A stretch of DNA of 64,000 bases from Longimicrobiales bacterium (GCA_965248195.1 CBDFIQ010000001.1:1088001-1152000), one strand, 5' to 3'. Positions 1,177 through 46,790 are shown, numbered from the stretch's first letter. The notes: generated by a model from the sequence alone, not told the origin. A program made the numbers and translations.

Positions 1177-1251
1177 CACGAGATTGCTGCTGTCGCGTGT
1201 GACATTAGGCCCGCGCGCTTCGCCTGCGGTCACCATTTTAGCCGCGCAGCA

Positions 1252-1578
1252 TCTATAAGGTGAAGGGAGTCAACAGGGCGTAGCCCTCCCTTACCCGTCC
1301 GGGGTCCCGGAGGGGTGGCTCGGTCCACTGGTCTGTAGCTCAAGGCCTGCGTGATCATCTTCCGTTTTTCATCCTTCAGTACCAACGTCGCGTCCGATCT
1401 TGGGTGAGTCTCCTCTCACGAGGAACTCAGGCATCTATTCAGGTTTCATCCCAGCGCGGGGATGTCCGAAGATCTGCTATGCGAGCGGGGGGCTCAATCA
1501 GAATCTGAGGGTCGTCGTGCGACATGCTGCGCGCGGAGCTCACCCCTGTCGTGGTACGGTCCATCATCGTGTGTCATC
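1252..1578 (-). ncRNA. putative bridge/seek RNA region of IS copy 1 (RNA ends unknown)
   Basis: Target-matching segments at 1499-1505 and 1473-1478; donor-matching segments at 1432-1438 and 1396-1401; each pair flanks a hairpin. Confidence 0.85.
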
Positions 1579-2616
1579 TCAGTTTGATCGAGCCACGGGT
1601 TCATCGTGCCAGACCTCACCCGTACGGAGCATCGCGTGCACAGCACGAGCGAGGCGCCGAGCGGTAGCGACCCGAGCGACCTGCCACCCGAGCCGTTGCC
1701 TGATCAGTTCGTACGACTGTGATAGCCAGCTGTCGGGCGCGTGAGTGACGTGGCTCACGACGGTCCGGACGAAGGTGCCCCTCAGCCAACGGTTGGCCCC
1801 GGCGGGGATCGATCCGTGGCGGATGGGCCGGAGCCCTGACTGTGAGGAGCGAGGGGCTAGACCGGCGTAGCTGACCAGGTGCCCCGGTGTACGAAATCGT
1901 TTGATGGGCAACGTCTCGGTGGCGATGAGCAATGCCCGATAGGAACCGACGCCCGGGATGGTCTCGAGCAGAGCTACAGCGGGGACCTTGCGGCCTACGT
2001 GCTCAACCCTGCGATCAAGCGTTTTGATCATCGGCACGATCTGGTCGATGAGTTCCCACTGCATGTCGATGAACAGACGCCGCTCGGCTCCGAGCAGCGG
2101 CCACGCCACGTCATGCACCCACTGGCGTCCATCCTGGGTGAGCAGACGCCCACGCTCCAGATGAAGCCCGACGTTGTGGATCTGGGCATGGATGCGGTTC
2201 ACCATGCGTGTGCGTTCGCGTACGAGTCGTGCCCGGTTGCGTAGCAGTACCGCCTGCTCCCGCTGCTCGACGCACTTCGGATGGACCTCGGGGATGAGGC
2301 CCGCGAGTCGCATACGCGCCAACAACTCGGCGTCGATGTCGTCACTCTTGTAGTTGGACTCGGCGATGACTCGGAGCCGCTTGGCGTGAGCGAGCACGAA
2401 GTCGATCCCCCGCTCTTGGAGTCGATCGAAGAGCCACGGCCAGGCCGGACTCGTCTCGACGACCACCTCCAGGGGCTGATACTGCTCCAGTAGATCATTG
2501 AGCCGATCCTCTTGCGTGTTCTTGATCCGGATGGGTCCGGCAACGAGCTGACCTGTGTTGCTCACGATGGCGATCACCGAATACGTTGCGTGAGCATCGA
2601 TTCCTGCGACAAACAT
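1579..2616 (-). CDS. IS110-family DEDD recombinase/transposase
   Basis: GIDAH, VVVET and KSDDIDA RuvC-like acidic residues; IPGVG; SYAGLAP..SQSG serine motif. Confidence 0.95.
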   Translation of the reverse strand: MFVAGIDAHATYSVIAIVSNTGQLVAGPIRIKNTQEDRLNDLLEQYQPLEVVVETSPAWPWLFDRLQERGIDFVLAHAKRLRVIAESNYKSDDIDAELLARMRLAGLIPEVHPKCVEQREQAVLLRNRARLVRERTRMVNRIHAQIHNVGLHLERGRLLTQDGRQWVHDVAWPLLGAERRLFIDMQWELIDQIVPMIKTLDRRVEHVGRKVPAVALLETIPGVGSYRALLIATETLPIKRFRTPGHLVSYAGLAPRSSQSGLRPIRHGSIPAGANRWLRGTFVRTVVSHVTHAPDSWLSQSYELIRQRLGWQVARVATARRLARAVHAMLRTGEVWHDEPVARSN

Positions 2617-2811
2617 GGCTGGCCTCCTTGGGTTGGGTGCCGCAGGCCTTTGAGCAAGATCAGCGTAACGCCACGCTCGAGTGAGGTCAGCCTTTCGCCT
2701 TATAAGATCAGAATCGCAGAGACGTTATACGGACCTGCGCTGTGGCGCCTCGTCGAGTGACCCAACCCACAAGAATTGGACCGAGAAGAGTCCAATCATG
2801 AGGAGAGAGAA

Positions 2812-5484: not shown

Positions 5485-5557
5485 GTTCGTTTTCTCTGCC
5501 TTCGCCCTACTCTAATTCTTTGCGTGCTCCGTGTCTCACGTACGTTGGCAGAGAGGG

Positions 5558-8223: not shown

Positions 8224-8848
8224 GCCCGAACCCTGATGGGTAACAAAAACTGAACCTTGATGGGTTACAGTTTTGGGTTACGAGAAGAGGAGCCATTGTG
8301 GTCGAGGATGGCACCTTTTCTTATGTGCAGCCAGCCGAGCGAGACGGGGCCAAAGTAGACGGCCCAGATGTCGTGGTCGATCTCTTCGAGACCGATGTAG
8401 TCTCCACCGAGCAGGTGAGAGACGTTGATCCAGACGGAGTGCCATCGGATACCTCCGTTTGTTGAGACTTTGCGGACTTCGAAGTGAGCAGGGTAGTCGG
8501 GTGTGCTCAGCTTCGTCGGGAACGAGCGGGTGGAGGGTTGATATGCGGAAGCAGGCGGCTTCTGGCCTAGGGCTTCGTGAGGACGGATCTGGTTGAAGTC
8601 GGTGCGGAAGAAGTTGAAGCGCTTCTGCTGGGCGGAACGGTTTCCGGCAGGCGGGATGGTGGCCTCGGCCTTGAGGTCTTTGTGCATGCGTTCGTGACGG
8701 CCGTTCTGTTGGGGTGAGGCGGGCTCGATGAGGTCGGGCAGGATACCGAGCTTGATCCACCAGACGGAGAGTCGGGAGAGGCGGCCGAGAGCAATGGAAG
8801 CGAAGGGTGTCCCGTTGTCGGTGCGGATGCGCTGGGGCAGGCCGAACT
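8221..8848 (-). mobile_element. IS481-family 3' remnant A
   Basis: FGLPQRIRTDNGTPF...QQNGRHERMHKDLK integrase core; terminal repeated TA(A)CCCATCA motifs; cut by IS256. Confidence 0.8.
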
Positions 8849-10224
8849 GGTAGTGTCCCTAGATTTGTGTAAAAGCGGATAAGCTGGACAGGAGGGAAAG
8901 AAAAACGGAAGCTCCTCTGTTGTTGTTCACTGTCACATGAACCCGGGAGTCCGGGTCTGCAGAGCAGGCTCGGAACCGGAGAGGAGCTTCCGATGCAAGA
9001 GATTGTGGAGATCGGTCGGGCCACGCAAGACGAGCTACGCGATGATTTGCGCGAGCTGTTTCAAGGCGCGATCCGGCTGACGCTCGAGATGGTGCTGGAA
9101 GAGGAGCTGAAGGCCATGGTAGGTGCACGCCGCTTCGAGCGGGTGGGAAGCCGGAAGGACCATAGGAACGGCACATACCTGAGGCGGCTGCTGACGAGCC
9201 TGGGGCAGATCGAGGTCGCCATGCCCCGGAGCCGGGACAACGGTTCGCCGGCCGACGTGATCGGCCGCTACCAGCGCAGGAGCCCCGAGCTCGACGAGAT
9301 GATGGTCGAGGCGTATGTGAGCGGCGTGTCACAGCGCAAGATGGGCGACGTCACCGAGGCGCTGATGGGCGAGCGTGTTGGGCGCTCGACGGTGAGTCGT
9401 GTGGCAAAACGGCTCGACGAGGCCGTGGAAGGGCTGCGCCGTGCGCCGATCGAGGGGCCTCACCCCTATCTGTACCTGGACGCCACGTTCTTGGACGCCC
9501 GCTGGGCCCGCAAAGTCGAGAACGTGAGTGCGCTCGTGGCGTATGCAGTGGGCCCTGAGGGTCACCGACGGCTCCTGGCCGTCACGCTGGGCGCTGAGGA
9601 GTCGCAGCAGAGCTGGTCGGAGCTCCTCGAGCAACTCCAGGACCGCGGCCTCGGCGGTGTCGAGCTCGTGATCGCCGATGAGCACGCAGGCCTGGCAGCT
9701 GCGGTCCGCCGCTTCCTGCCCGAGGCACGCCGTCAGAGGTGTACGGTCCATCTGCAGCGTAATGTGGGGGCGAGGGTCCCCCACCGCCTACGCAAGCGCG
9801 TGGCGCGTGAGGTCTCGGTGATCTTCCAGACATCCGGACTCGCCGAGGCGAAGAAGCTCCTGGGCGAGTTCGGCGCACGCTGGAAGAAGGAGCTGCCCGA
9901 GGCCGTGGAGGTCCTGGAGCGGGGCTTCGGGGCAGCGACGCAGTTCTACGCGTTCCCCGAGGCGCACTGGCCCCGGCTGCGTACCACCAACAGCCTCGAG
10001 CGGCTGCACGGCGAGATCAAACGCAGGATCAAGGCCGCCGGCGCCTTCCCGGACCGGGCCAGCGCCCTCAGGCTCATCACGGCCGTCGCACTCAGGACCA
10101 CACACGTCTGGGGCGACCGGCGTTACCTCGACCTCTCACTCCTCCAGAAACAGGAGGTCGCCCAAGCAGCCTAGCCGAAGGCGAGGAGCTTCCTCCGCTT
10201 TTACACACAAATCGGGACTTGACC
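8849..10224 (+). mobile_element. IS256-family element, copy 1, 1376 bp
   Basis: IRs GGTAGTGTCCC..TGTAAAAGCGGA / GGTCAAGTCCC..TGTAAAAGCGGA; flanks do not form a duplication. Confidence 0.93.
8993..10174 (+). CDS. IS256-family (Mutator) transposase
   Basis: YLYLDA, VIADEH, QRCTVH, LRTTNSLERL. Confidence 0.95.
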   Translation: MQEIVEIGRATQDELRDDLRELFQGAIRLTLEMVLEEELKAMVGARRFERVGSRKDHRNGTYLRRLLTSLGQIEVAMPRSRDNGSPADVIGRYQRRSPELDEMMVEAYVSGVSQRKMGDVTEALMGERVGRSTVSRVAKRLDEAVEGLRRAPIEGPHPYLYLDATFLDARWARKVENVSALVAYAVGPEGHRRLLAVTLGAEESQQSWSELLEQLQDRGLGGVELVIADEHAGLAAAVRRFLPEARRQRCTVHLQRNVGARVPHRLRKRVAREVSVIFQTSGLAEAKKLLGEFGARWKKELPEAVEVLERGFGAATQFYAFPEAHWPRLRTTNSLERLHGEIKRRIKAAGAFPDRASALRLITAVALRTTHVWGDRRYLDLSLLQKQEVAQAA

Positions 10225-10692
10225 CATGCACAAAGACCTCAAGGCCGAGGCCACCATCCCGCCTGCCGGAAACCGTTCCGCCCAGCAGAAGCGCTTCAAC
10301 TTCTTCCGCACCGACTTCAACCAGATCCGTCCTCACGAAGCCCTAGGCCAGAAGCCGCCTGCTTCCGCATATCAACCCTCCACCCGCTCGTTCCCGACGA
10401 AGCTGAGCACACCCGACTACCCTGCTCACTTCGAAGTCCGCAAAGTCTCAACAAACGGAGGTATCCGATGGCACTCCGTCTGGATCAACGTCTCTCACCT
10501 GCTCGGTGGAGACTACATCGGTCTCGAAGAGATCGACCACGACATCTGGGCCGTCTACTTTGGCCCCGTCTCGCTCGGCTGGCTGCACATAAGAAAAGGT
10601 GCCATCCTCGACCACAATGGCTCCTCTTCTCGTAACCCAAAACTGTAACCCATCAAGGTTCAGTTTTTGTTACCCATCAGGGTTCGGGCTCA
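10225..10692 (+). mobile_element. IS481-family 3' remnant B
   Basis: Reverse complement of 8221-8688. Confidence 0.8.
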
Positions 10693-12086: not shown

Positions 12087-12234
12087 GTGCCTCCTCGAAA
12101 CAAGTGCTCGGTGAAAGGCCATCCAGGCCGACTGCGGCCCGAGGGCTGCGTTCAGGCGGGTGATTGGGTCGGTCATCAGCGCAACATAGCCCGAGGCCTC
12201 AGGTTGTGCCCCCCGCCGCCTGAATACGAGGGCC

Positions 12235-12335
12235 ATCTAACGGATATGCGATTCTGCTGCGCGTCCAACATGCCCTCCGCGTGCGTAGCGCGCGACCCTC
12301 ACGCTTCACGTGACAGTAGCAATCGCTTGTTAGAT
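12235..12335 (-). other. attC: attC site, uninterrupted
   Basis: Reverse complement of the same attC family; cores at 12235-12241 and 12329-12335. Confidence 0.9.
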
Positions 12336-12971: not shown

Positions 12972-13113
12972 CACCCTGCTCGGAGCATGATCAGGTGCAA
13001 TCTAACGTCTCTGCGATTCTGATCTTATAAGGCGAAAGGCTGACCTCACTCGAGCGTGGCGTTACGCTGATCTTGCTCAAAGGCCTGCGGCACCCAACCC
13101 AAGGAGGCCAGCC

Positions 13114-14151
13114 ATGTTTGTCGCAGGAATCGATGCTCACGCAACGTATTCGGTGATCGCCATCGTGAGCAATACAGGTCAGCTCGTGGCCGGACCCATC
13201 CGGATCAAGAACACACAAGAGGATCGACTCGATGATCTACTTCAGCAGTATCAGCCCCTGGAGGTGGTCGTCGAGACGAGTCCGGCCTGGCCGTGGCTCT
13301 TCGATCGACTCCAAGAGCGGGGGATCGACTTCGTGCTCGCTCACGCCAAGCGGCTCCGAGTCATTGCCGAGTCCAACTACAAGAGTGACGACATCGACGC
13401 CGAGTTGTTGGCGCGTATGCGGCTCGCGGGCCTCATCCCCGAGGTCCATCCGAAGTGCGTCGAGCAGCGGGAGCAGGCGGTACTGCTACGCAACCGGGCG
13501 AGACTCGTACGCGAACGGACGCGCATGGTGAACCGCATCCACTCCCAACTCCACAACGTTGGGCTTCACCTGGAGCGTGGGCGTCTGCTCACCCAGGACG
13601 GACGTCAGTGGGTGCGTACCGAGGCATGGCCCCTGCTCGGAGACGAGCGGCGTCTGTTCATCGACATGCAGTGGGAACTCATCGACCAGATCGTACCGAT
13701 GATCAAAACCCTCGATCGCAGAGTGGAACACGTGGGCCGCGAGATCCCGGCTGTGGCCCTGCTCGAGACCGTCCCGGGCATCGGTCCCTACCGGGCATTG
13801 CTCATCGCCACCGAGACGTTGCCCATCAAACGATTTCGTACACCGGGGCACCTGGTCAGCTACGCCGGTCTAGCCCCTCGCTCCTCACAGTCAGGGCTCC
13901 GGCCCATCCGCCACGGATCGATCCCCGCCGGGGCCAACCGTTGGCTGAGGGGCACCTTCGTCCGGACCGTCGTGAGCCACGTCACTCACGCGCCCGACAG
14001 CTGGCTATCACAGTCGTACGAACTGATCAGGCAACGGCTCGGGTGGCAGGTCGCTCGGGTCGCTACCGCTCGGCGCCTCGCTCGTGCTGTGCACGCGATG
14101 CTCCGTACGGGTGAGGTCTGGCACGATGAACCCGTGGCTCGATCAAACTGA
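13114..14151 (+). CDS. IS110-family recombinase (variant allele)
   Basis: Near-identical to 1579-2616; AAGGAGG RBS. Confidence 0.95.
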   Translation: MFVAGIDAHATYSVIAIVSNTGQLVAGPIRIKNTQEDRLDDLLQQYQPLEVVVETSPAWPWLFDRLQERGIDFVLAHAKRLRVIAESNYKSDDIDAELLARMRLAGLIPEVHPKCVEQREQAVLLRNRARLVRERTRMVNRIHSQLHNVGLHLERGRLLTQDGRQWVRTEAWPLLGDERRLFIDMQWELIDQIVPMIKTLDRRVEHVGREIPAVALLETVPGIGPYRALLIATETLPIKRFRTPGHLVSYAGLAPRSSQSGLRPIRHGSIPAGANRWLRGTFVRTVVSHVTHAPDSWLSQSYELIRQRLGWQVARVATARRLARAVHAMLRTGEVWHDEPVARSN

Positions 14152-14422
14152 GATGACACACGATGATGGACCGTACCACGACAGGGGTGAGCTCCGTGCG
14201 CAGCATGTCGCACGACGACCCTCAGATTCTGATTGAGCCCCCCGCTCGCATAGCAGATCTTCGGACATCCCCGCGCTGGGATGAAACCTGAATAGATGCC
14301 TGAGTTCCTCGTGAGAGGAGACTCACCCAAGATCGGACGCGACGTTGGTACTGAAGGATGAAAAACGGAAGATGATCACGCAGGCCTTGAGCTACAGACC
14401 AGTGGACCGAGCCACCCCTCCG
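14152..14422 (+). ncRNA. putative bridge/seek RNA region of IS copy 2
   Basis: GATTCTG 14225-14231 and AGCAGA 14252-14257 match the target; ATAGATG 14292-14298 and AAGATC 14329-14334 match the donor junction. Confidence 0.85.
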
Positions 14423-15327
14423 CCCTCTCTGCCAACGTACGTGAGACACGGAGCACGCAAAGAATTAGAGTAGGGCGAAGGCAGAGAAAACGAACATGTT
14501 GGGACTGCGAGAGAGAATGGAAGAGAATGGTAGTGCCCCTGGAATCGGGGAGGCCAAGCGAAGCGCGGCAGCTCCTGCGGACCCGGAGGTAGTAGATAGG
14601 CCGCTACGCCGGCGGTTCAGTCCATCGTACAAGCTGCGGATCGTCGAAGAAGCGGACCGGTGCACCGAGCCCGGCGAGGTGGGTCAGCTCCTGCGGCGCG
14701 AGGGCCTGTACTCGTCGCACCTGACGACGTGGCGCAAGGCGGCGCATAGCGGGTCGCTGAAGGCCCTGTCGAAGAAACGCGGCCGCAAGCCGGAGCGGAA
14801 TCCGCTGGATGAGAAGGTACGCAAGCTGGAGCGGCAAAACGCACGGCTCGAGAATGAGCTCAGGAAGGCACACCTGATCATCGACGTGCAGGGAAAAGTT
14901 GCGGGGCTGCTGGGGATAAGCCTCGACGACGGGACGAACTCTTGAAGGCGGCCGATGAGCTGGCTAAGCACGTCGGTGTAAAACCGGCGTGCGCGGCTCT
15001 CGAGGTCTCCCGATCGACGTTCTACCGTCGTCGAGGCCCATCGACCGGGCAACGGCAGCCCCGCCCGACGCCCGCCCGGGCATTGAGCGAGACGGAACGA
15101 GGCGAGGTTACCTGATCGGCGTTCCCGAAGTGGACACATTGCCGGCAGGAAATCCGTGCTCCGCGAAGCATGGGCCGCTCATCCCGAACGCTTCGTCACA
15201 GGTGTGCCGAAGCCCAAACCGCTCCCGGAGGCCGTCTACATCAATCCTCCCATCCCTTCCCTCACCACACAGGATATTGCTCTCTAATTAATCCCGTAGA
15301 GTGTCCCATTGTCGTTGACAGGTTCCG
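14423..15327 (+). mobile_element. IS3-family element, copy 2, internally deleted (905 bp)
   Basis: Both ends present; CCG/CCG duplication; orfB DDE core missing. Confidence 0.9.
14496..14945 (+). CDS. IS3-family OrfA
   Basis: Identical protein to 5035-5484. Confidence 0.9.
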   Translation: MLGLRERMEENGSAPGIGEAKRSAAAPADPEVVDRPLRRRFSPSYKLRIVEEADRCTEPGEVGQLLRREGLYSSHLTTWRKAAHSGSLKALSKKRGRKPERNPLDEKVRKLERQNARLENELRKAHLIIDVQGKVAGLLGISLDDGTNS

Positions 15328-15489
15328 CCGGGACCCCGGACGGGTAAGGGAGGGCTACGCCCTGTTGACTCCCTTCACCTTATAGATGCTGCGCGGCTAA
15401 TGTGGTGACCGCAAGCGAAGCGCGCGAGCCTAATGGCTACCGCGACAGTAGCAATCGCTTGTTAGATGGCGCGGACGCTCGGAAAGACC

Positions 15490-16197
15490 TCACTCGCCAG
15501 CGGGTCTAGACTCCGCAATCAGCCTAAGGATCGTCGCAGCCTCATCGAGTAGCCGCTGCCCACCCTGCACTAGGTCCTGCTGTATCCACACTCGACTCGT
15601 CACCACGTCCGCGAAATCCGAGGCAGCCAAGCGTCGCAGATCGACCCTATACTCCACGGGAGGGACCGCAATACCCTCATATTCGGGATAGAGGCCTGTG
15701 AGGGCCCGCGCTTCGATCATCAACGGTTCCTCGAAGCCGATCCAATGGTCCCAAGCCCATTGTGAGACATTGCCCTGGACCGCGACCTGGCTTTCGAACC
15801 GGGCAAGAGCCACGCGGAGACTGTCACTGCGCAGAAGCCGGATGTCGCCGGAGTTGACCATGTCGTGGTATGTAGCGAGAACGGGTCGGAAATGTTCGAT
15901 ACGAAACGCGTCTTCCAGAAGTAACCTGACACTCTCTCTTGAGGCGCTGGCATAGTCGGTGTCGAGGAGGCCGAGGTTGGCATCTCGTATCCGGGCGGCC
16001 GTTTCAACGTGCGCGGTCAACTCGCGCTGGTTTTCAAAGAAATCCTGTTCAAGCGCCTCGAGGTACTGGATTTCCTCTGCAACCTCACGCCGCGCATCCG
16101 TGGCCGAGTCGGCCCACAATGCGAGAGCTGCGCCGATCAAGAGGAGCCCTACCTCGGCTACAGCTTGGCGCCAGTTGATTCGATCGGTGAGGGCCAG
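15490..16197 (-). CDS. membrane-anchored helical protein, DUF6090-like (cassette gene)
   Basis: Frame open to 16200; INWRQAVAEVGLLLIGAALALWAD; GGAG before CTG at 16197; YHDMVNSGDIRLL; start uncertain. Confidence 0.6.
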   Translation of the reverse strand: MALTDRINWRQAVAEVGLLLIGAALALWADSATDARREVAEEIQYLEALEQDFFENQRELTAHVETAARIRDANLGLLDTDYASASRESVRLLLEDAFRIEHFRPVLATYHDMVNSGDIRLLRSDSLRVALARFESQVAVQGNVSQWAWDHWIGFEEPLMIEARALTGLYPEYEGIAVPPVEYRVDLRRLAASDFADVVTSRVWIQQDLVQGGQRLLDEAATILRLIAESRPAGE

Positions 16198-17025: not shown

Positions 17026-18401
17026 GGTCAAGTCCCGATTTGTGTGTAAAAGCGGAGGAAGCTCCTCGCCTTCGGCTAGGCTGCTTGGGCGACCTCCTGT
17101 TTCTGGAGGAGTGAGAGGTCGAGGTAACGCCGGTCGCCCCAGACGTGTGTGGTCCTGAGTGCGACGGCCGTGATGAGCCTGAGGGCGCTGGCCCGGTCCG
17201 GGAAGGCGCCGGCGGCCTTGATCCTGCGTTTGATCTCGCCGTGCAGCCGCTCGAGGCTGTTGGTGGTACGCAGCCGGGGCCAGTGCGCCTCGGGGAACGC
17301 GTAGAACTGCGTCGCTGCCCCGAAGCCCCGCTCCAGGACCTCCACGGCCTCGGGCAGCTCCTTCTTCCAGCGTGCGCCGAACTCGCCCAGGAGCTTCTTC
17401 GCCTCGGCGAGTCCGGATGTCTGGAAGATCACCGAGACCTCACGCGCCACGCGCTTGCGTAGGCGGTGGGGGACCCTCGCCCCCACATTACGCTGCAGAT
17501 GGACCGTACACCTCTGACGGCGTGCCTCGGGCAGGAAGCGGCGGACCGCAGCTGCCAGGCCTGCGTGCTCATCGGCGATCACGAGCTCGACACCGCCGAG
17601 GCCGCGGTCCTGGAGTTGCTCGAGGAGCTCCGACCAGCTCTGCTGCGACTCCTCAGCGCCCAGCGTGACGGCCAGGAGCCGTCGGTGACCCTCAGGGCCC
17701 ACTGCATACGCCACGAGCGCACTCACGTTCTCGACTTTGCGGGCCCAGCGGGCGTCCAAGAACGTGGCGTCCAGGTACAGATAGGGGTGAGGCCCCTCGA
17801 TCGGCGCACGGCGCAGCCCTTCCACGGCCTCGTCGAGCCGTTTTGCCACACGACTCACCGTCGAGCGCCCAACACGCTCGCCCATCAGCGCCTCGGTGAC
17901 GTCGCCCATCTTGCGCTGTGACACGCCGCTCACATACGCCTCGACCATCATCTCGTCGAGCTCGGGGCTCCTGCGCTGGTAGCGGCCGATCACGTCGGCC
18001 GGCGAACCGTTGTCCCGGCTCCGGGGCATGGCGACCTCGATCTGCCCCAGGCTCGTCAGCAGCCGCCTCAGGTATGTGCCGTTCCTATGGTCCTTCCGGC
18101 TTCCCACCCGCTCGAAGCGGCGTGCACCTACCATGGCCTTCAGCTCCTCTTCCAGCACCATCTCGAGCGTCAGCCGGATCGCGCCTTGAAACAGCTCGCG
18201 CAAATCATCGCGTAGCTCGTCTTGCGTGGCCCGACCGATCTCCACAATCTCTTGCATCGGAAGCTCCTCTCCGGTTCCGAGCCTGCTCTGCAGACCCGGA
18301 CTCCCGGGTTCATGTGACAGTGAACAACAACAGAGGAGCTTCCGTTTTTCTTTCCCTCCTGTCCAGCTTATCCGCTTTTACACAAATCTAGGGACACTAC
18401 C
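17026..18401 (-). mobile_element. IS256-family element, copy 2
   Basis: 9-bp duplication CTCTGCGAT (17017-17025, 18402-18410). Confidence 0.95.
17076..18257 (-). CDS. IS256-family transposase
   Basis: Identical to 8993-10174. Confidence 0.95.
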   Translation of the reverse strand: MQEIVEIGRATQDELRDDLRELFQGAIRLTLEMVLEEELKAMVGARRFERVGSRKDHRNGTYLRRLLTSLGQIEVAMPRSRDNGSPADVIGRYQRRSPELDEMMVEAYVSGVSQRKMGDVTEALMGERVGRSTVSRVAKRLDEAVEGLRRAPIEGPHPYLYLDATFLDARWARKVENVSALVAYAVGPEGHRRLLAVTLGAEESQQSWSELLEQLQDRGLGGVELVIADEHAGLAAAVRRFLPEARRQRCTVHLQRNVGARVPHRLRKRVAREVSVIFQTSGLAEAKKLLGEFGARWKKELPEAVEVLERGFGAATQFYAFPEAHWPRLRTTNSLERLHGEIKRRIKAAGAFPDRASALRLITAVALRTTHVWGDRRYLDLSLLQKQEVAQAA

Positions 18402-18414
18402 CTCTGCGATTCTG

Positions 18415-19575
18415 ATCTTATAAGGCGAAAGGCTGACCTCACTCGAGCGTGGCGTTACGCTGATCTTGCTCAAAGGCCTGCGGCACCCAACCCAAGGAGG
18501 CCAGCCATGTTTGTCGCAGGAATCGATGCTCACGCAACGTATTCGGTGATCGCCATCGTGAGCAACACAGGTCAGCTCGTTGCCGGACCCATCCGGATCA
18601 AGAACACGCAAGAGGATCGGCTCAATGATCTACTGGAGCAGTATCAGCCCCTGGAGGTGGTCGTCGAGACGAGTCCGGCCTGGCCGTGGCTCTTCGATCG
18701 ACTCCAAGAGCGGGGGATCGACTTCGTGCTCGCTCACGCCAAGCGGCTCCGAGTCATCGCCGAGTCCAACTACAAGAGTGACGACATCGACGCCGAGTTG
18801 TTGGCGCGTATGCGACTCGCGGGCCTCATCCCCGAGGTCCATCCGAAGTGCGTCGAGCAGCGGGAGCAGGCGGTACTGCTACGCAACCGGGCACGACTCG
18901 TACGCGAACGCACACGCATGGTGAACCGCATCCATGCCCAGATCCACAACGTCGGGCTTCATCTGGAGCGTGGGCGTCTGCTCACCCAGGATGGACGCCA
19001 GTGGGTGCATGACGTGGCGTGGCCGCTGCTCGGAGCCGAGCGGCGTCTGTTCATCGACATGCAGTGGGAACTCATCGACCAGATCGTGCCGATGATCAAA
19101 ACGCTTGATCGCAGGGTTGAGCACGTAGGCCGCAAGGTCCCCGCTGTAGCTCTGCTCGAGACCATCCCGGGCGTCGGTTCCTATCGGGCATTGCTCATCG
19201 CCACCGAGACGTTGCCCATCAAACGATTTCGTACACCGGGGCACCTGGTCAGCTACGCCGGTCTAGCCCCTCGCTCCTCACAGTCAGGGCTCCGGCCCAT
19301 CCGCCACGGATCGATCCCCGCCGGGGCCAACCGTTGGCTGAGGGGCACCTTCGTCCGGACCGTCGTGAGCCACGTCACTCACGCGCCCGACAGCTGGCTA
19401 TCACAGTCGTACGAACTGATCAGGCAACGGCTCGGGTGGCAGGTCGCTCGGGTCGCTACCGCTCGGCGCCTCGCTCGTGCTGTGCACGCGATGCTCCGTA
19501 CGGGTGAGGTCTGGCACGATGAACCCGTGGCTCGATCAAACTGAGATGACACACGATGATGGACCGTACCACGAC
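18415..19575 (+). mobile_element. IS110/IS1111 element, copy 3, right end truncated
   Basis: Left end ATCTTATAAGG follows the core TG; cut by IS256 31 nt after the stop, so the RNA region is lost. Confidence 0.9.
18507..19544 (+). CDS. IS110-family recombinase
   Basis: Protein identical to 1579-2616. Confidence 0.95.
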   Translation: MFVAGIDAHATYSVIAIVSNTGQLVAGPIRIKNTQEDRLNDLLEQYQPLEVVVETSPAWPWLFDRLQERGIDFVLAHAKRLRVIAESNYKSDDIDAELLARMRLAGLIPEVHPKCVEQREQAVLLRNRARLVRERTRMVNRIHAQIHNVGLHLERGRLLTQDGRQWVHDVAWPLLGAERRLFIDMQWELIDQIVPMIKTLDRRVEHVGRKVPAVALLETIPGVGSYRALLIATETLPIKRFRTPGHLVSYAGLAPRSSQSGLRPIRHGSIPAGANRWLRGTFVRTVVSHVTHAPDSWLSQSYELIRQRLGWQVARVATARRLARAVHAMLRTGEVWHDEPVARSN

Positions 19576-20951
19576 GGTAGTGTCCCTAGATTTGTGTAAA
19601 AGCGGATAAGCTGGACAGGAGGGAAAGAAAAACGGAAGCTCCTCTGTTGTTGTTCACTGTCACATGAACCCGGGAGTCCGGGTCTGCAGAGCAGGCTCGG
19701 AACCGGAGAGGAGCTTCCGATGCAAGAGATTGTGGAGATCGGTCGGGCCACGCAAGACGAGCTACGCGATGATTTGCGCGAGCTGTTTCAAGGCGCGATC
19801 CGGCTGACGCTCGAGATGGTGCTGGAAGAGGAGCTGAAGGCCATGGTAGGTGCACGCCGCTTCGAGCGGGTGGGAAGCCGGAAGGACCATAGGAACGGCA
19901 CATACCTGAGGCGGCTGCTGACGAGCCTGGGGCAGATCGAGGTCGCCATGCCCCGGAGCCGGGACAACGGTTCGCCGGCCGACGTGATCGGCCGCTACCA
20001 GCGCAGGAGCCCCGAGCTCGACGAGATGATGGTCGAGGCGTATGTGAGCGGCGTGTCACAGCGCAAGATGGGCGACGTCACCGAGGCGCTGATGGGCGAG
20101 CGTGTTGGGCGCTCGACGGTGAGTCGTGTGGCAAAACGGCTCGACGAGGCCGTGGAAGGGCTGCGCCGTGCGCCGATCGAGGGGCCTCACCCCTATCTGT
20201 ACCTGGACGCCACGTTCTTGGACGCCCGCTGGGCCCGCAAAGTCGAGAACGTGAGTGCGCTCGTGGCGTATGCAGTGGGCCCTGAGGGTCACCGACGGCT
20301 CCTGGCCGTCACGCTGGGCGCTGAGGAGTCGCAGCAGAGCTGGTCGGAGCTCCTCGAGCAACTCCAGGACCGCGGCCTCGGCGGTGTCGAGCTCGTGATC
20401 GCCGATGAGCACGCAGGCCTGGCAGCTGCGGTCCGCCGCTTCCTGCCCGAGGCACGCCGTCAGAGGTGTACGGTCCATCTGCAGCGTAATGTGGGGGCGA
20501 GGGTCCCCCACCGCCTACGCAAGCGCGTGGCGCGTGAGGTCTCGGTGATCTTCCAGACATCCGGACTCGCCGAGGCGAAGAAGCTCCTGGGCGAGTTCGG
20601 CGCACGCTGGAAGAAGGAGCTGCCCGAGGCCGTGGAGGTCCTGGAGCGGGGCTTCGGGGCAGCGACGCAGTTCTACGCGTTCCCCGAGGCGCACTGGCCC
20701 CGGCTGCGTACCACCAACAGCCTCGAGCGGCTGCACGGCGAGATCAAACGCAGGATCAAGGCCGCCGGCGCCTTCCCGGACCGGGCCAGCGCCCTCAGGC
20801 TCATCACGGCCGTCGCACTCAGGACCACACACGTCTGGGGCGACCGGCGTTACCTCGACCTCTCACTCCTCCAGAAACAGGAGGTCGCCCAAGCAGCCTA
20901 GCCGAAGGCGAGGAGCTTCCTCCGCTTTTACACACAAATCGGGACTTGACC
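19576..20951 (+). mobile_element. IS256-family element, copy 3
   Basis: Same IRs; right flank TCCTGAACC matches the outer flank of copy 4. Confidence 0.93.
19720..20901 (+). CDS. IS256-family transposase
   Basis: Identical to 8993-10174. Confidence 0.95.
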   Translation: MQEIVEIGRATQDELRDDLRELFQGAIRLTLEMVLEEELKAMVGARRFERVGSRKDHRNGTYLRRLLTSLGQIEVAMPRSRDNGSPADVIGRYQRRSPELDEMMVEAYVSGVSQRKMGDVTEALMGERVGRSTVSRVAKRLDEAVEGLRRAPIEGPHPYLYLDATFLDARWARKVENVSALVAYAVGPEGHRRLLAVTLGAEESQQSWSELLEQLQDRGLGGVELVIADEHAGLAAAVRRFLPEARRQRCTVHLQRNVGARVPHRLRKRVAREVSVIFQTSGLAEAKKLLGEFGARWKKELPEAVEVLERGFGAATQFYAFPEAHWPRLRTTNSLERLHGEIKRRIKAAGAFPDRASALRLITAVALRTTHVWGDRRYLDLSLLQKQEVAQAA

Positions 20952-21253: not shown

Positions 21254-21617
21254 TGATGTCTTCAGGCCTAGTGTTGACGTAGCACGCGATGGATGGAATT
21301 CTAGGTTGTCCCGAACCGGAGTGAGCGGTGCGCTACAGCGGCAAGTCACTTCTGGTGGTAGCAGCGCTCTTCGCGCTAGCTCTCGTGGCTGCCTGGGTAC
21401 TCTACGGGCAGCTTCAATCTGTGGCAGAAGGGACATATGCGGGTTTCAAACTAGGCGGAGCCGTCGCCGTCTTCGTGGTTGTGTTCCTACTGCTCCGAGC
21501 CACCTACGAACGCACACTGGGGAAGAGCGTCGTAAAGGTCCAAGTGAGCTTTGCAAACGGTCAAGTTCCCCCCGGTGCGGAACCTGTCAACGACAATGGG
21601 ACACTCTACGGGATTAA

Positions 21618-22625
21618 TTAGAGAGCAATATCCTGTGTGGTGAGGGAAGGGATGGGAGGATTGATGTAGACGGCCTCCGGGAGCGGTTTGGGCTTCGGCA
21701 CACCTGTGACGAAGCGTTCGGGATGAGCGGCCCATGCTTCGCGGAGCACGGATTTCCTGCCGGCAATGACCTGATCGGCGTTCCCGAAGTGGACCTGCTC
21801 GGGGGTTAGCATCGAGATACCGCCATGGCGGTGCTCGGCATTGTACCAGCGGAAGAACGATCGACACAACGTCTTGGCCTGGCCCTGATCCCCGAACCGC
21901 CCGGGAAACGAGGGATGGTACTTCAAGGTTTTGAACTGAGCCTCGGAAAACGGGTTGTCATCCGACACCTGAGGCCGGCTCAACGAGCGAGTCACGCCGA
22001 GGTCAGCGAGAAGTTGAGCGGTGCATTGGCTCGTCATTGGAGCTCCCCGATCCGAGTGCAGGGTCAGGACCCGGGGCTGGACGCCATGCTTCAGGCAGCT
22101 CTGCTGGATCAACCGGCCGGCCAGGGCCGAGTTCTCCCGGTCCGCCACCATCCAGCCCACGACGTAGCGGCTGTAGATGTCCATGATGACGTAGAGGTAG
22201 TAATAGCTCCACTTCTTCGGCCCGAGTAGCCGCGTGATATCCCAGGACCACACCTGGTTCGGCGCCGTGGCCATCAACTCGGGCTTCTTGTACTCGGGAT
22301 GGGTGCGCTGCGCCCGGCGTTCCTGAACCGGCACCTCGGAGGCCAGAACACGATACATCGTGCGTTCGCTGCACAGGTAGACCTCTTCGTCGAGCAGCGT
22401 GGCCACCACCTCGGCGGGTGAGCGGTCCACGAACCGCTCCGAACACAGCGTGTCGAAGACCTCGCCTCGTTCCGTCTCGCTCAATGCCCGGGCGGGCGTC
22501 GGGCGGGGCTGCCGTTGCCCGGTCGATGGGCCTCGACGACGGTAGAACGTCGATCGGGAGACCTCGAGAGCCGCGCACGCCGGTTTTACACCGACGTGCT
22601 TAGCCAGCTCATCGGCCGCCTTCAA
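21618..22625 (-). CDS. IS3-family OrfB
   Basis: Identical to 4031-5038. Confidence 0.93.
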   Translation of the reverse strand: MKAADELAKHVGVKPACAALEVSRSTFYRRRGPSTGQRQPRPTPARALSETERGEVFDTLCSERFVDRSPAEVVATLLDEEVYLCSERTMYRVLASEVPVQERRAQRTHPEYKKPELMATAPNQVWSWDITRLLGPKKWSYYYLYVIMDIYSRYVVGWMVADRENSALAGRLIQQSCLKHGVQPRVLTLHSDRGAPMTSQCTAQLLADLGVTRSLSRPQVSDDNPFSEAQFKTLKYHPSFPGRFGDQGQAKTLCRSFFRWYNAEHRHGGISMLTPEQVHFGNADQVIAGRKSVLREAWAAHPERFVTGVPKPKPLPEAVYINPPIPSLTTQDIAL

Positions 22626-23071
22626 GAGTTCGTCCCGTCGTCGAGGCTTATCCCCAGCAGCCCCGCAACTTTTCCCTGCACGTCGATGATCAGGTGTGCC
22701 TTCCTGAGCTCATTCTCGAGCCGTGCGTTTTGCCGCTCCAGCTTGCGTACCTTCTCATCCAGCGGATTCCGCTCCGGCTTGCGGCCGCGTTTCTTCGACA
22801 GGGCCTTCAGCGACCCGCTATGCGCCGCCTTGCGCCACGTCGTCAGGTGCGACGAGTACAGGCCCTCGCGCCGCAGGAGCTGACCCACCTCGCCGGGCTC
22901 GGTGCACCGGTCCGCTTCTTCGACGATCCGCAGCTTGTACGATGGACTGAACCGCCGGCGTAGCGGCCTATCTACTACCTCCGGGTCCGCAGGAGCTGCC
23001 GCGCTTCGCTTGGCCTCCCCGATTCCAGGGGCACTACCATTCTCTTCCATTCTCTCTCGCAGTCCCAACAT
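22622..23071 (-). CDS. IS3-family OrfA
   Basis: Identical to 5035-5484. Confidence 0.9.
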   Translation of the reverse strand: MLGLRERMEENGSAPGIGEAKRSAAAPADPEVVDRPLRRRFSPSYKLRIVEEADRCTEPGEVGQLLRREGLYSSHLTTWRKAAHSGSLKALSKKRGRKPERNPLDEKVRKLERQNARLENELRKAHLIIDVQGKVAGLLGISLDDGTNS

Positions 23072-23334
23072 GTTCGTTTTCTCTGCCTTCGCCCTACTCT
23101 AATTCTTTGCGTGCTCCGTGTCTCACGTACGTTGGCAGAGAGGGGTGCAGCCGATTCCAAGTGTACCTACTCGCTCTACAATCGTGATACGCTAGAACAG
23201 CTTGACGGCCAGCCCGCAAAGCTGCTCAAGGAAGGAGCAGGTTTGGTTTTCTACGTTGAGTCCCAGAGCGCCCACGATTTGATCAAGGTCGACCTTGAAG
23301 CCACAAATGGGGTAACATGGCAAAGTGGGTATTG

Positions 23335-24710
23335 GGTCAAGTCCCGATTTGTGTGTAAAAGCGGAGGAAGCTCCTCGCCTTCGGCTAGGCTGCTTGGGCG
23401 ACCTCCTGTTTCTGGAGGAGTGAGAGGTCGAGGTAACGCCGGTCGCCCCAGACGTGTGTGGTCCTGAGTGCGACGGCCGTGATGAGCCTGAGGGCGCTGG
23501 CCCGGTCCGGGAAGGCGCCGGCGGCCTTGATCCTGCGTTTGATCTCGCCGTGCAGCCGCTCGAGGCTGTTGGTGGTACGCAGCCGGGGCCAGTGCGCCTC
23601 GGGGAACGCGTAGAACTGCGTCGCTGCCCCGAAGCCCCGCTCCAGGACCTCCACGGCCTCGGGCAGCTCCTTCTTCCAGCGTGCGCCGAACTCGCCCAGG
23701 AGCTTCTTCGCCTCGGCGAGTCCGGATGTCTGGAAGATCACCGAGACCTCACGCGCCACGCGCTTGCGTAGGCGGTGGGGGACCCTCGCCCCCACATTAC
23801 GCTGCAGATGGACCGTACACCTCTGACGGCGTGCCTCGGGCAGGAAGCGGCGGACCGCAGCTGCCAGGCCTGCGTGCTCATCGGCGATCACGAGCTCGAC
23901 ACCGCCGAGGCCGCGGTCCTGGAGTTGCTCGAGGAGCTCCGACCAGCTCTGCTGCGACTCCTCAGCGCCCAGCGTGACGGCCAGGAGCCGTCGGTGACCC
24001 TCAGGGCCCACTGCATACGCCACGAGCGCACTCACGTTCTCGACTTTGCGGGCCCAGCGGGCGTCCAAGAACGTGGCGTCCAGGTACAGATAGGGGTGAG
24101 GCCCCTCGATCGGCGCACGGCGCAGCCCTTCCACGGCCTCGTCGAGCCGTTTTGCCACACGACTCACCGTCGAGCGCCCAACACGCTCGCCCATCAGCGC
24201 CTCGGTGACGTCGCCCATCTTGCGCTGTGACACGCCGCTCACATACGCCTCGACCATCATCTCGTCGAGCTCGGGGCTCCTGCGCTGGTAGCGGCCGATC
24301 ACGTCGGCCGGCGAACCGTTGTCCCGGCTCCGGGGCATGGCGACCTCGATCTGCCCCAGGCTCGTCAGCAGCCGCCTCAGGTATGTGCCGTTCCTATGGT
24401 CCTTCCGGCTTCCCACCCGCTCGAAGCGGCGTGCACCTACCATGGCCTTCAGCTCCTCTTCCAGCACCATCTCGAGCGTCAGCCGGATCGCGCCTTGAAA
24501 CAGCTCGCGCAAATCATCGCGTAGCTCGTCTTGCGTGGCCCGACCGATCTCCACAATCTCTTGCATCGGAAGCTCCTCTCCGGTTCCGAGCCTGCTCTGC
24601 AGACCCGGACTCCCGGGTTCATGTGACAGTGAACAACAACAGAGGAGCTTCCGTTTTTCTTTCCCTCCTGTCCAGCTTATCCGCTTTTACACAAATCTAG
24701 GGACACTACC
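23335..24710 (-). mobile_element. IS256-family element, copy 4
   Basis: Same IRs; abuts intI. Confidence 0.93.
23385..24566 (-). CDS. IS256-family transposase
   Basis: Identical to 8993-10174. Confidence 0.95.
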   Translation of the reverse strand: MQEIVEIGRATQDELRDDLRELFQGAIRLTLEMVLEEELKAMVGARRFERVGSRKDHRNGTYLRRLLTSLGQIEVAMPRSRDNGSPADVIGRYQRRSPELDEMMVEAYVSGVSQRKMGDVTEALMGERVGRSTVSRVAKRLDEAVEGLRRAPIEGPHPYLYLDATFLDARWARKVENVSALVAYAVGPEGHRRLLAVTLGAEESQQSWSELLEQLQDRGLGGVELVIADEHAGLAAAVRRFLPEARRQRCTVHLQRNVGARVPHRLRKRVAREVSVIFQTSGLAEAKKLLGEFGARWKKELPEAVEVLERGFGAATQFYAFPEAHWPRLRTTNSLERLHGEIKRRIKAAGAFPDRASALRLITAVALRTTHVWGDRRYLDLSLLQKQEVAQAA

Positions 24711-25266
24711 GGTTCAGGACGTGGGTGTAGATCATGGTGGTCTTCACGCTTCGGTGTCCAAGTAGCTCCTGGATGGTGCGTATGTCGTAGCCATCCTCGA
24801 GTAGGTGAGTGGCGAAGGAATGCCGGAGGGTGTGGCAGGTGACTCGCTTGGTGAGCCCGAGAACCCGGACCGCGGTTTTCAGAGCTCGTTGCACGGACGT
24901 GGGGTGGAGGTGAAATCTGCCCCGAGCTCCGGTGAGCGGGTCCGCGGTGAAGGTCGAGGCGGCAAAGAGGAACTGCCAACCCAACTCGACGCCCGACCTC
25001 GGTGATTTCGTCGCATACATCCCCGGCAGCACCGCCCAGCCGAAGCCAGCCGCGAGGTCCTTTTCGTGGATGGCGCGGCGCCGTTCGATCTGCTCCTTTA
25101 GTGGGCCGACCAGCACCGCGGGAACCACAGAGACCCGCTCCCTGCCACCTTTCGCCCCCCGGACCCTCAGCTCTCGACCATCGAGATCCAGGTCCTTCAC
25201 CCTCAGTTGGAGTCCCTCTTTCAGTCGGAGACCCGAGCCGTAAAGCACGTGCCCAGCTAAAGGGCG
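24711..25266 (-). pseudogene. intI: integron integrase catalytic domain; N-terminus missing, C-terminus split off
   Basis: LYGSGLR, HTLRHSFATHLL, LLGH..TTMIYTH, plus the IntI-specific insertion (HEKDLAAGFG..LP....K.P.....GWQFLF). Confidence 0.92.
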
Positions 25267-46781: not shown

Positions 46782-46790
46782 GAGAGGCCG

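What the first reader, a model, noticed from the sequence alone, without database searches (positions are those of the whole stretch)
14152..14422. RNA-guided recombinase aimed at integron attC sites: readable bridge/seek RNA with target and donor guides
Seen: the empty target reads GCGATTC-TG-CTGCG, and joining the element ends gives the donor TATAGA-TG-ATCTTA. The 3' non-coding region holds two modules in order. Module 1 is GATTCTG (14225-14231, left target plus core), a GAGC/GCTC hairpin, then AGCAGA (14252-14257, reverse complement of TCTGCT across core and right target). Module 2 is ATAGATG (14292-14298, left donor plus core), a long TGAGT-TCCTC/GAGGA-ACTCA hairpin with a GTGA loop, then AAGATC (14329-14334, reverse complement of the right donor). 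Copy 1 has the same segments at 1396-1505. Established: IS110-family bridge/seek RNAs use this left-guide/right-guide layout, and IS1111 members encode the RNA 3' of the transposase. attC-targeting IS1111 elements are already known from Proteobacteria. Inference: this is a compact (345 aa) programmable recombinase with a TG core from a probably unrelated lineage, with all four guides identifiable. Its novelty was not checked.
Basis: partly seen in the sequence, partly recalled or inferred. Interest (0 to 1): 0.95.

Follow-up and report, generated by a model that had tools for sequence, protein, structure and literature searches.

The report
RNA-guided jumping gene in integron sites

Summary
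The element is real. It is a 1459-bp IS1111-type insertion sequence with a 345-aa DEDD transposase and a long 3' non-coding region. In this genome 13 left and 11 right junctions lie at one position of attC sites, GATTC-TG-CTGCGCG.

Forty related loci (39 titled as Gemmatimonadota lineages) test them as follows:
- **Left-target guide, 14225-14231:** confirmed by covariation.
- **Right-target guide, AGCAGA 14252-14257:** rejected. It lies in a scaffold kept in elements with unrelated targets. The real guide is 14195-14205, 5' of the left guide, the order published for IS1111 seekRNAs.
- **Left-donor guide, 14292-14298:** supported at its one variable position.
- **Right-donor guide, 14329-14334:** not supported.

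Cognate guides match their own flanks at 10.6 of 14 positions, against 5.0 for non-cognate pairs.

RNA guidance to attC sites was already shown by experiment for ISKpn4, ISPst6 and ISPa25 (PMC11187229). This is therefore a new member of a known kind, in a new phylum and at a different attC subsite. No RNA was shown here. The scan had already reported another copy of this element in the same genome (e1-7899395), with the same verdict.

The parts
13003..13019 (+). Left half of the interrupted attC site (TAACGTCTCTGCGATTC); the last 5-7 nt are the left target
   Evidence: Shared by 11 of 13 left junctions in the genome, with a YTAACG motif upstream; attC hairpin of an uninterrupted site
13020..13021 (+). 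TG core at the left junction
   Evidence: TG at all 13 left and 11 right junctions of this genome; one TG in empty sites
13022..13113 (+). Left end of copy 2, with the subterminal inverted repeat TATAAGGCGAAAGG at 13026-13039
   Evidence: read directly, it matches the right arm CCCTTCACCTTATA (15371-15384) at 12 of 14 positions
13114..14151 (+). Transposase gene, 345 aa. Inferred residues: DEDD D7, E54, D92, D95; GLAPRSSQSG motif with S259-G260
   Evidence: alignment to IS4321 transposase
14184..14243 (+). Predicted target-binding domain of the seekRNA: closing helices GGGG/CCCC and GCTC/GAGC around two guide blocks and a small hairpin
   Evidence: RNAalifold consensus; 97.2% of cells paired against 34-51% with slid partners
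14195..14205 (+). Right-target guide CGTGCGCAG plus CA. It is complementary to TG-CTGCGCG; the other copies have C at 14197, where this copy's T would give a U-G pair
   Evidence: Complement fractions 0.92, 0.83, 0.78, 0.83, 0.87 for right-target positions +2 to +6; permutation test
14207..14219 (+). Small hairpin GTCG/CGAC between the two target guides
   Evidence: one pair changes on both sides, UA to CG, in 3 sequences
14225..14231 (+). Left-target guide GATTC plus core TG, same sense as the target's top strand
   Evidence: Identity 1.0, 1.0 and 0.92 at left-target positions -2, -3, -4 across relatives with different targets
14248..14261 (+). It resembles the donor junction in the same sense. 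Role unknown
   Evidence: Near-invariant in 22 aligned sequences whatever the target
14288..14336 (+). Predicted donor-binding internal loop: closing helix CUG/CGG, hairpin 14301-14325
   Evidence: the hairpin has one pair with changes on both sides in 4 sequences
14292..14298 (+). Left-donor guide ATAGA plus TG
   Evidence: Guide base equals the last base of the right end (A, G or C) in 0.96 of 24 sequences
14329..14334 (+).
14423..15327 (+). IS3-family deletion derivative inserted into copy 2 (CCG duplication at 14420-14422 and 15328-15330)
15328..15386 (+). Displaced right end of copy 2, ending TATAGA
15387..15470 (+). TG core (15387-15388) and the right half of the attC site, ending GTTAGAT
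1250..2710 (-). Copy 1, complete, with a CA (TG) core at each junction
18402..19582 (+). Copy 3, cut short by an IS256-family element
12233..12335 (+). Unoccupied attC site with a perfect target (GCGATTC-TG-CTGCGCG at 12248-12263)
24697..25260 (-). Broken integron-integrase gene
   Evidence: TIGR02249 238.7 bits (cut-off 265), model positions 120-307, two TAG stops

Best explanation
The finding covers most of the 3' non-coding region of one copy of a 1459-bp IS1111-type insertion sequence. Its DEDD/serine recombinase is most likely steered by an RNA from this region (a seekRNA, or bridge RNA).

The target-binding part (14184-14243) holds two guides in one loop. The 5' guide at 14195-14205 would pair with the top strand of the TG core plus the right target CTGCGCG. 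The 3' guide at 14225-14231 would pair with the bottom strand of the left target GATTC plus TG.

A second conserved loop (14288-14336) carries ATAGATG, which matches the element's own right end plus core. It probably reads the donor, meaning the joined ends of the excised circle.

The target lies in one arm of integron attC sites, 13 nt from the GTT of the R' core. In the two window copies that could be checked, the element lies antisense to the cassette gene.

Shown here: the element, its copies, the attC target, and the covariation between guide and target. Inferred by analogy with published relatives: that an RNA is made, that it binds the protein, and that it directs recombination.
For: 1. 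Family. Pfam PF01548 and PF02371; NCBIfam NF033542 at 202.5 bits against a cut-off of 140; 23% identity over 293 aa to IS4321 transposase, with E54, D92, D95 and the GL-P----SG motif aligned.
2. Copies. There are 7 uninterrupted full-length copies 99.4-100% identical to copy 1, 3 copies split by other insertion sequences, and 4 fragments. Every junction lies at one position of attC-like sites.
3. attC identity. An uninterrupted site folds as a hairpin closed by ATCTAAC/GTTAGAT. It lies at cassette ends beside a broken intI.
4. Comparative test. Of 40 related loci, 30 were analysed. A conserved scaffold holds two hypervariable blocks. Block V2 plus TG equals each element's left flank (GATTC, TTCTGC, TTAAGC, TAACC, GTTTC). 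The reverse complement of block V1 plus CA equals TG plus each right flank (CTGCGCG 7 of 7, TGGTGAA 7, CGCGACC 7, CTGAAAC 7, CAAGGCG 7, CCCCGGG 7, TGTCTC 6, CTGCAC 6).
5. Single-base compensations inside the close clade: L050 (right target G to A, guide C to T) and L051 (left target G to C, guide G to C).
6. Statistics. Over 16 distinct guide pairs from 22 loci with both junctions, cognate matches average 10.56 of 14 and 238 non-cognate pairings average 4.97. None of 20000 permutations reached the observed sum.
7. Guide order. The guide pairing with the top strand lies 5' of the one pairing with the bottom strand, and both overlap the core, as PMC11187229 sections 9 and 12 state for ISEc11, ISPa11, ISKpn4 and ISPst6.
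8. Donor. The guide base follows the last base of the right end (A, G or C) in 0.96 of 24 sequences.
Against: - No RNA was shown. Rfam has no match. The single-sequence fold is no better than shuffles (z -1.24, 23 of 200 shuffles fold as well).
- The scaffold helices are almost invariant, so structural covariation is thin: 3 of 21 pairs change on both sides, a count that 48 of 500 shuffles reach.
- Exceptions to guide-target matching: L079 right guide 4 of 7, L065 5 of 7, L073 0 of 7, L074 0 of 7 (a rearranged site), L055 left guide 4 of 7.
- No guide for the right donor half could be established.
- The relatives are kin, so the counts overstate independence.
- This particular copy is split by another insertion sequence and may no longer move as a unit.
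Confidence: 0.82

Rival explanations
1. Both modules are IS621-like, with the left guide 5' and the right guide 3' of a hairpin, so that AGCAGA (14252-14257) reads the right target and AAGATC (14329-14334) reads the right donor half.
For: The segments exist at those places. The GAGC/GCTC hairpin between GATTCTG and AGCAGA is compatible with the alignment: 3 pairs are 100% paired and the fourth 72.7%. AAGATC sits on the 3' side of the predicted donor loop, opposite ATAGATG.
Against: AGCAGA lies in GCATAG(C/G)AGATC, which is kept in relatives whose right targets share nothing with CTGCG. 6-mers occur by chance 2-3 times per region. The hypervariable block V1 accounts for the right flank in most relatives. 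GATCGG does not change where the left end is ACCTTA. Published IS1111 seekRNAs have the opposite order (PMC11187229, sections 9 and 12).
Confidence: 0.05
2. Target choice is made by the protein alone, for instance by recognising the attC hairpin. The matching segments in the non-coding region would be by-products with no guiding role.
For: No RNA or RNA-protein complex was observed here. attC sites are structured DNA that proteins such as IntI read by shape (established knowledge, recalled).
Against: Base-by-base covariation of two internal blocks with the two flanks over at least 8 different target sequences, some of which are not attC-like. Two subclades use the same attC family 3 bp apart, each with guides that fit its own register. 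Direct experiments on family members show that the RNA is essential (PMC11187229, abstract and sections 7-10).
Confidence: 0.03
3. The short target-binding RNA alone is the functional guide, as with the 82-nt ISEc11 seekRNA. The second conserved loop (14288-14336) would then be a protein-binding or processing scaffold, not a donor-binding loop, and the ATAGATG match would be a shared relic of conserved ends.
For: PMC11187229 section 10 reports that the short 82-nt seekRNA, described as carrying the two target matches, was enough and moved the mini-IS more efficiently. No right-donor guide could be found here.
Against: The guide base tracks the last base of the right end through three states (A, G, C) in 0.96 of 24 sequences. 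The internal-loop geometry resembles the donor-binding loop of IS621. PMC11208160 (section 12) predicts donor-binding nucleotides in IS1111 RNAs.
Confidence: 0.1

Closest known systems
IS1111-attC elements ISKpn4, ISPst6 and ISPa25 with their seekRNAs (Siddiquee et al. 2024, PMC11187229; Post and Hall 2009 and Tetu and Holmes 2008 seen only as references)
   Same: IS1111-type layout: short left end, transposase gene, long 3' non-coding region. Insertion at one fixed position and orientation in integron attC sites. Two short RNA segments match both strands of the target and overlap at the insertion point, with the top-strand match 5' of the bottom-strand match.
   Different: - Host phylum is Gemmatimonadota, not Proteobacteria.
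- The transposase is only 23% identical to the IS1111-family reference IS4321. No Klebsiella, Pseudomonas or Escherichia genus was among the ten most frequent of the 595 plasmid records matched at E <= 1e-5.
- Different subsite. A review table (PMC13604230) gives the ISKpn4 target as CGGCTTGAA*CGAATTGTTAG, 6 nt from GTTAG. Here the cut lies 13 nt from GTTA and the element is antisense to the cassette gene.
- A direct sequence comparison with ISKpn4, ISPst6 or ISPa25 could not be made.
ISEc11 / ISXne4 natural retargeting (PMC11187229, section 10)
   Same: Close relatives keep the RNA stem and swap the two target-matching blocks, and their flanks change accordingly.
   Different: Here the series is larger, with 16 distinct guide pairs. 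It includes two subclades aimed at the same attC family 3 bp apart (GATTC-TG-CTGCGCG and TTCTGC-TG-CGCGACC).
IS621 bridge RNA (Durrant et al. 2024, PMC11208160; Hiraizumi et al. 2024, PMC11208158)
   Same: DEDD plus serine recombinase, a 2-nt core shared by target and donor, and internal loops whose two sides read opposite strands on either side of the core.
   Different: The RNA is encoded 3' rather than 5' of the gene. The guide order in the target loop is reversed. The subterminal repeats are long (14 bp). The protein is barely alignable (phmmer E 0.094 to IS621, 0.0075 to ISCro4). The right-donor guide is not identified.
Group IIC-attC introns (PMC3001079; abstract seen in the search listing)
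   Same: Another mobile-element lineage that specifically invades attC sites of cassette arrays.
   Different: These are retroelements with a different mechanism. They are not related.

Membership tests
IS110 family (RNA-guided DEDD transposases) | Transposase with an N-terminal DEDD RuvC-like domain and a C-terminal Tnp domain | tested here: met
   PF01548 E 4.4e-17 and PF02371 E 1.5e-15; NF033542 at 202.5 bits against a cut-off of 140
IS110 family (RNA-guided DEDD transposases) | Catalytic residues D, E, D, D and the serine of the SG motif | tested here: met
   E54, D92, D95 and S259-G260 align with IS4321 residues. D7 in GIDAH was read from the sequence and lies outside the alignment. Comparison with IS621 D11/E60/D102/D105/S241 (PMC11208158) is by motif spacing only
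IS110 family (RNA-guided DEDD transposases) | No target duplication; a short core present once in the empty site and at both junctions | tested here: met
   TG at 13 of 13 left and 11 of 11 right junctions; one TG in two empty sites
IS1111 group | Subterminal inverted repeats of 7-17 bp | tested here: met
   TATAAGGCGAAAGG (13026-13039) against the right arm 15371-15384, 12 of 14, starting 4 and 2 nt inside the ends (read directly). Length range from PMC11208160, section 12
IS1111 group | Longer non-coding region downstream of the transposase gene | tested here: met
   92 nt upstream, 327 nt downstream
IS1111 group | Transposase of 330-350 aa with a GL-P----S(t)G motif | tested here: met
   345 aa; GLAPRSSQSG at 251-260. 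Criterion from PMC11187229, section 6
IS1111 group | Transposase related over its full length to that of IS1111, placed inside the IS1111 clade | tested here: inconclusive
   23% identity over residues 38-324 to IS4321 (51 bits), against 15-19 bits to the IS110-group structures. No tree with ISfinder references could be built
IS1111 group | seekRNA with the top-strand match 5' of the bottom-strand match | tested here: met
   V1 (14195-14205) lies 5' of V2 (14225-14231). Criterion from PMC11187229, sections 9 and 12
IS1111 group | An RNA from the non-coding region that co-purifies with the transposase and is needed for movement | not testable with these tools
   RNA-library contigs lie on the element but cannot show a transcript, its ends or its strand
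IS1111-attC group (Tetu and Holmes 2008) | Insertion at a fixed position and orientation in attC sites | tested here: met
   Both window copies checked lie antisense to the adjacent cassette gene (ORFs 866-1176 + and 15490-16140 -)
IS1111-attC group (Tetu and Holmes 2008) | Membership of the phylogenetic cluster of ISPst6, ISKpn4, ISPa21 and relatives (definition recalled; paper not held) | not tested
   No sequence of these elements could be fetched. The different subsite and low identity to IS4321 suggest a separate origin

The most novel reading that the evidence does not exclude
attC targeting arose here independently of the proteobacterial IS1111-attC group. It would have arisen in a Gemmatimonadota clade of seekRNA elements that keeps retargeting among attC families and registers (3 bp apart on the same attC), and that pairs an IS1111-order target loop with an IS110-like donor loop. 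In this genome the element occupies at least 9 of the 11 sites that carry the perfect 14-nt target, so it may effectively cripple the host's cassette arrays.
Probability: 0.3. Interest if true: 0.5.

Novelty: new member of a known kind. Interest (0 to 1): 0.35.

Why it matters
The mechanism is not new. The value is as material for further work:
- A compact 345-aa recombinase whose two target guides are now mapped correctly.
- A natural series of 16 guide-target pairs, including single-base compensations, which shows which positions count: about 5 nt on the left and 6-7 nt on the right of a TG core.
- A case outside Proteobacteria where such elements have colonised nearly every matching attC site of an integron-rich genome. 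This bears on how cassette arrays decay.

It also gives a practical warning. Guides cannot be read off one sequence from 6-nt matches. Here that approach misplaced one guide and left another unsupported.

Tried and rejected
- **Rfam.** No match at gathering threshold over the window, and none at E <= 1 over copy 1's non-coding region.
- **Single-sequence RNA fold of 14178-14345.** z -1.24, and the fold differs from the consensus. Not used.
- **AGATGATC near 14370.** This 8-mer is a same-sense copy of the circle junction, but it is not conserved in 78-92% identical relatives. Judged to be chance.
- **Another right-donor guide.** Matches of 6 nt or more to core plus left end were sought in 16 elements. 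No consistent place emerged.
- **The scaffold GCATAG(C/G)AGATC.** It resembles the donor junction in the same sense, but its variable bases do not follow the ends. Role left open.
- **Fetching ISKpn4-type transposases.** tblastn of the window's protein against plasmids gave 595 records, all below 60% identity, the best about 34% in haloarchaeal and alphaproteobacterial plasmids. PMC2447020 is not held.
- **Expression.** Contigs of four metatranscriptome runs from three studies lie on most of the element, including the non-coding region. Some join the two flanks without the element. Contigs from RNA libraries can hold DNA and show no ends or strand, so this is not evidence for a seekRNA.
- **Junction promoter.** TTGACT lies 16 nt inside the right end and TTGAC is kept in most relatives, but no -10 hexamer at a usual spacing appears across the joined ends (read by eye). 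Not pursued.
- **Literature.** A search for attC, Gemmatimonad, IS110 and integron listed no paper on such elements in this phylum. That covers this library only.

Full report
**What is there.** The finding (14152-14422) is the first 271 nt of the 3' non-coding region of one copy of an insertion sequence.

- The full element is 1459 bp, counting one TG core.
- Copy 1 is complete on the minus strand at 1250-2710.
- Copy 2, the finding's copy, starts at 13020 and is split at 14422/14423 by a 905-bp IS3-family remnant. Its last 59 nt lie at 15328-15386.
- Copy 3 (18402-19582) is cut by an IS256-family element.
- The 345-aa ORF at 13114-14151 carries PF01548 and PF02371. It scores 202.5 bits against NCBIfam NF033542, 'IS110 family RNA-guided transposase', cut-off 140.

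**Copies and target.**

- In the two-contig genome a blastn with copy 1 gives 7 uninterrupted full-length copies (99.4-100% identical), 3 copies split by other insertions, and 4 fragments.
- All 13 left junctions read CGATTC-TG, 12 of them GCGATTC-TG. Of 11 right junctions, 9 read TG-CTGCGCG; one starts TTGCGCG and one reads CTGCGCA.
- Eleven of the 13 left flanks have YTAACG 10-11 nt further out.
- An uninterrupted site at 12233-12335 folds as single-stranded DNA into a long imperfect hairpin closed by ATCTAAC/GTTAGAT (-26.2 kcal/mol, z -1.87). It lies at a cassette boundary.
- A broken integron-integrase gene sits at 24697-25260: TIGR02249 238.7 bits, below the 265 cut-off, with two TAG stops.
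- Only two sites with a perfect 14-nt target remain empty in the genome, one of them at 12248-12263.
- In both window copies that could be checked, the element lies antisense to the neighbouring cassette ORF (866-1176 + beside copy 1; 15490-16140 - beside copy 2). The cut lies 13 nt from the GTT of the R' core.

All four strings are at the stated coordinates. By chance alone, 6-mer matches to a 24-nt target or donor window occur 2.9 and 2.1 times per non-coding region in 1000 dinucleotide shuffles, so AGCAGA and AAGATC prove nothing. An unbiased scan showed a 9-nt match that had been missed: CGCGCAGCA, the reverse complement of TG-CTGCGCG, at 14197-14205. In copy 2 its first base is T.

**Relatives.**

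- The search for related loci returned 40 loci with 51-92% identical transposases. Thirty-nine are titled as Gemmatimonadota-lineage MAGs and one as a 'Deltaproteobacteria' MAG.
- I analysed 30 and left out 10 with truncated matches (L054, L058, L075, L076, L078, L081-L085).
- The non-coding regions align as a strongly conserved scaffold: GAGCTC-[V1, about 9 nt]-CA-TGTCGC..CGACGACC-[V2, about 9 nt]-TG-AYTGAGCCCCCC..CTCGCATAG(C/G)AGATC. V1 and V2 are hypervariable.
- The left and right ends also align, which gives each element's flanks.

**Guide-target covariation.**

- The 3' part of V2 plus TG repeats each element's left flank: GATTC, TTCTGC, TTAAGC, TAACC, GTTTC, CGAGC.
- The reverse complement of V1 plus CA repeats TG plus each right flank: CTGCGCG, TGGTGAA, CGCGACC, CTGAAAC, CAAGGCG, CCCCGGG, TGTCTC.
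- Column-by-position statistics show the expected diagonals. Identity is 1.0, 1.0 and 0.92 for left-target positions -2 to -4. Complementarity is 0.92, 0.83, 0.78, 0.83 and 0.87 for right-target positions +2 to +6.
- Two single-base compensations occur inside the close clade, in L050 and L051.
- Over 16 distinct guide pairs from the 22 loci with both junctions, cognate pairs match at 10.56 of 14 positions and 238 non-cognate pairings at 4.97. None of 20000 permutations reached the observed sum.
- Exceptions were kept in these counts: L079 (right guide 4 of 7), L065 (5), L073 (0), L074 (0, a rearranged site), L055 (left guide 4 of 7), and L060, whose right guide was mis-extracted because of alignment gaps.
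- The loci are kin, so the test overstates independence. The variety of targets and the single-base changes are the stronger argument.

**Consequences for the reading.**

- The left-target guide at 14225-14231 is confirmed.
- The right-target guide is 14195-14205, not AGCAGA. AGCAGA lies in GCATAG(C/G)AGATC, which is unchanged in elements with quite different right targets.
- The order, with the top-strand-pairing guide 5' and the bottom-strand-pairing guide 3' and both overlapping the core, is the one reported for every IS1111 seekRNA tested. It is the reverse of the IS110-type order (PMC11187229, sections 9 and 12).

**Structure.**

- The RNAalifold consensus puts both target guides in one loop. 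The loop is closed by GGGG/CCCC and GCTC/GAGC and holds a small GTCG/CGAC hairpin between the guides.
- On a 22-sequence alignment, 97.2% of cells pair, against 34-51% with slid partners. Only 3 of 21 pairs change on both sides.

**Donor module.**

- A second conserved internal loop (14288-14336) has ATAGATG on its 5' side.
- The base before the core follows the last base of the right end (A in this clade, G in most others, C in L068/L069) in 0.96 of 24 sequences. L071 is the exception.
- The 3' side (CCCAAGAT) is complementary to ATCTT of the left end in this clade. However, GATCGG stays fixed where the left end is ACCTTA or ACTTTA. No column covaries with the left end, and no other consistent match exists.
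- The claim that all four guides are identifiable is therefore not met. Two target guides and one donor guide are supported.

**Comparison with what is known.**

- PMC11187229 (abstract, introduction and sections 6, 8-10, 12 and 13 read) shows by RNP purification, small-RNA-seq and transposition assays that IS1111 elements use a seekRNA from the 3' non-coding region. These include ISKpn4 and ISPst6, which target one end of attC sites, and the same matches were predicted for ISPa25.
- PMC11208160 (passages on IS1111 read) predicts bridge RNAs in the right end of 93% of IS1111 elements.
- The idea of an RNA-guided recombinase aimed at attC is therefore published.
- What differs here is the phylum, the sequence distance, the subsite and the orientation:
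  - Sequence distance: 23% identity to IS4321 transposase, and only marginal hits to IS621 and ISCro4 structures.
  - Subsite: a review table gives the ISKpn4 cut 6 nt from GTTAG (PMC13604230).
- The clade is sparse. It was found at E <= 1e-60 in 4 of 401 sampled genomes of the phylum, G000 included, and at E <= 1e-20 in 8 of 61 relatives.
- Whether it is a separate origin of attC targeting could not be tested, because no ISKpn4-group sequence was reachable.

**Other attC-directed subclades.** Several subclades also sit in attC-like sites (YTAACG upstream), with other guides: L060, L063-L067 and L079. L063/L064 use the same attC family as the window's element but 3 bp to the right (TTCTGC-TG-CGCGACC), with both guides shifted to match.

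**Earlier notes of the scan.** Another copy of this element in the same genome was already followed up, with the same verdict (e1-7899395). I reached my reading before seeing that note and tested the claim myself.

**Verdict.** This is a real and probably recently active IS1111-type, seekRNA-guided element aimed at attC sites. It is a new member of a known kind.

Noticed in passing
window 8844-10226, 17026-18404, 19573-20951, 23333-24715, 54892-56268: Five identical copies of a 1.38-kb IS256-family element (Transposase_mut, E 5.5e-100). One cuts copy 3 of the IS1111-type element and one abuts the broken intI. An earlier scan note (e1-7899410) reports such copies 17 nt from att cores.
   Followed up: partly
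window 3991-5557, 21577-23144 and 14423-15327: IS3-family element (orfA HTH_Tnp_1, orfB rve). A 905-bp internal-deletion derivative is inserted in copy 2's right non-coding region, with a CCG duplication.
   Followed up: partly
L074 (locus coordinates about 3860 onward): In a related genome the right end of one copy is followed directly by ACTGAGCCCCCCGCTCGCATAGCAGATCTT. That is the part of another copy's non-coding region just after its own left-target guide plus TG. The guide's DNA looks like a half-target, so this may be self-targeting or recombination between copies. The left flank does not fit a simple insertion.
   Followed up: no
L068 and L069: Two copies in one genome have TG at the left junction but AG at the right junction. 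Their right-target guide carries CG where others have CA. The flanks GTTTC..CTGAAAC form an inverted repeat. The first core position seems tolerant of mismatch.
   Followed up: no
window 14232-14233 and the aligned column in relatives: The two bases after the left-target guide plus TG (AT or AC) equal the first two bases of the element's left end in 20 of 26 loci. All 6 misses are in the window's close clade. This could be a handshake-like extension, as described for IS621 (PMC11208158), or merely shared descent.
   Followed up: partly
window 15364-15369 and relatives' right ends: TTGACT lies 16 nt inside the right end and TTGAC is kept in most relatives. It may be the -35 of a junction promoter, but no -10 at a usual spacing appears across the joined ends.
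   Followed up: no
window 3849-3915 (minus strand) and other empty attC sites in the genome: attC sites that differ from the target in the core (TA for TG) or by one or two guide positions are unoccupied, for example GCCATTC-TA-CTGCGCG. This fits guide and core specificity.
   Followed up: partly
L050: One 85%-identical copy lies on a contig titled as a Deltaproteobacteria MAG. This may be mis-binning or transfer between phyla.
   Followed up: no
window 46640-46803: A 22-bp tandem repeat, about 6-7 units rich in GACGAG and GATGAC, unrelated to the finding.
   Followed up: no
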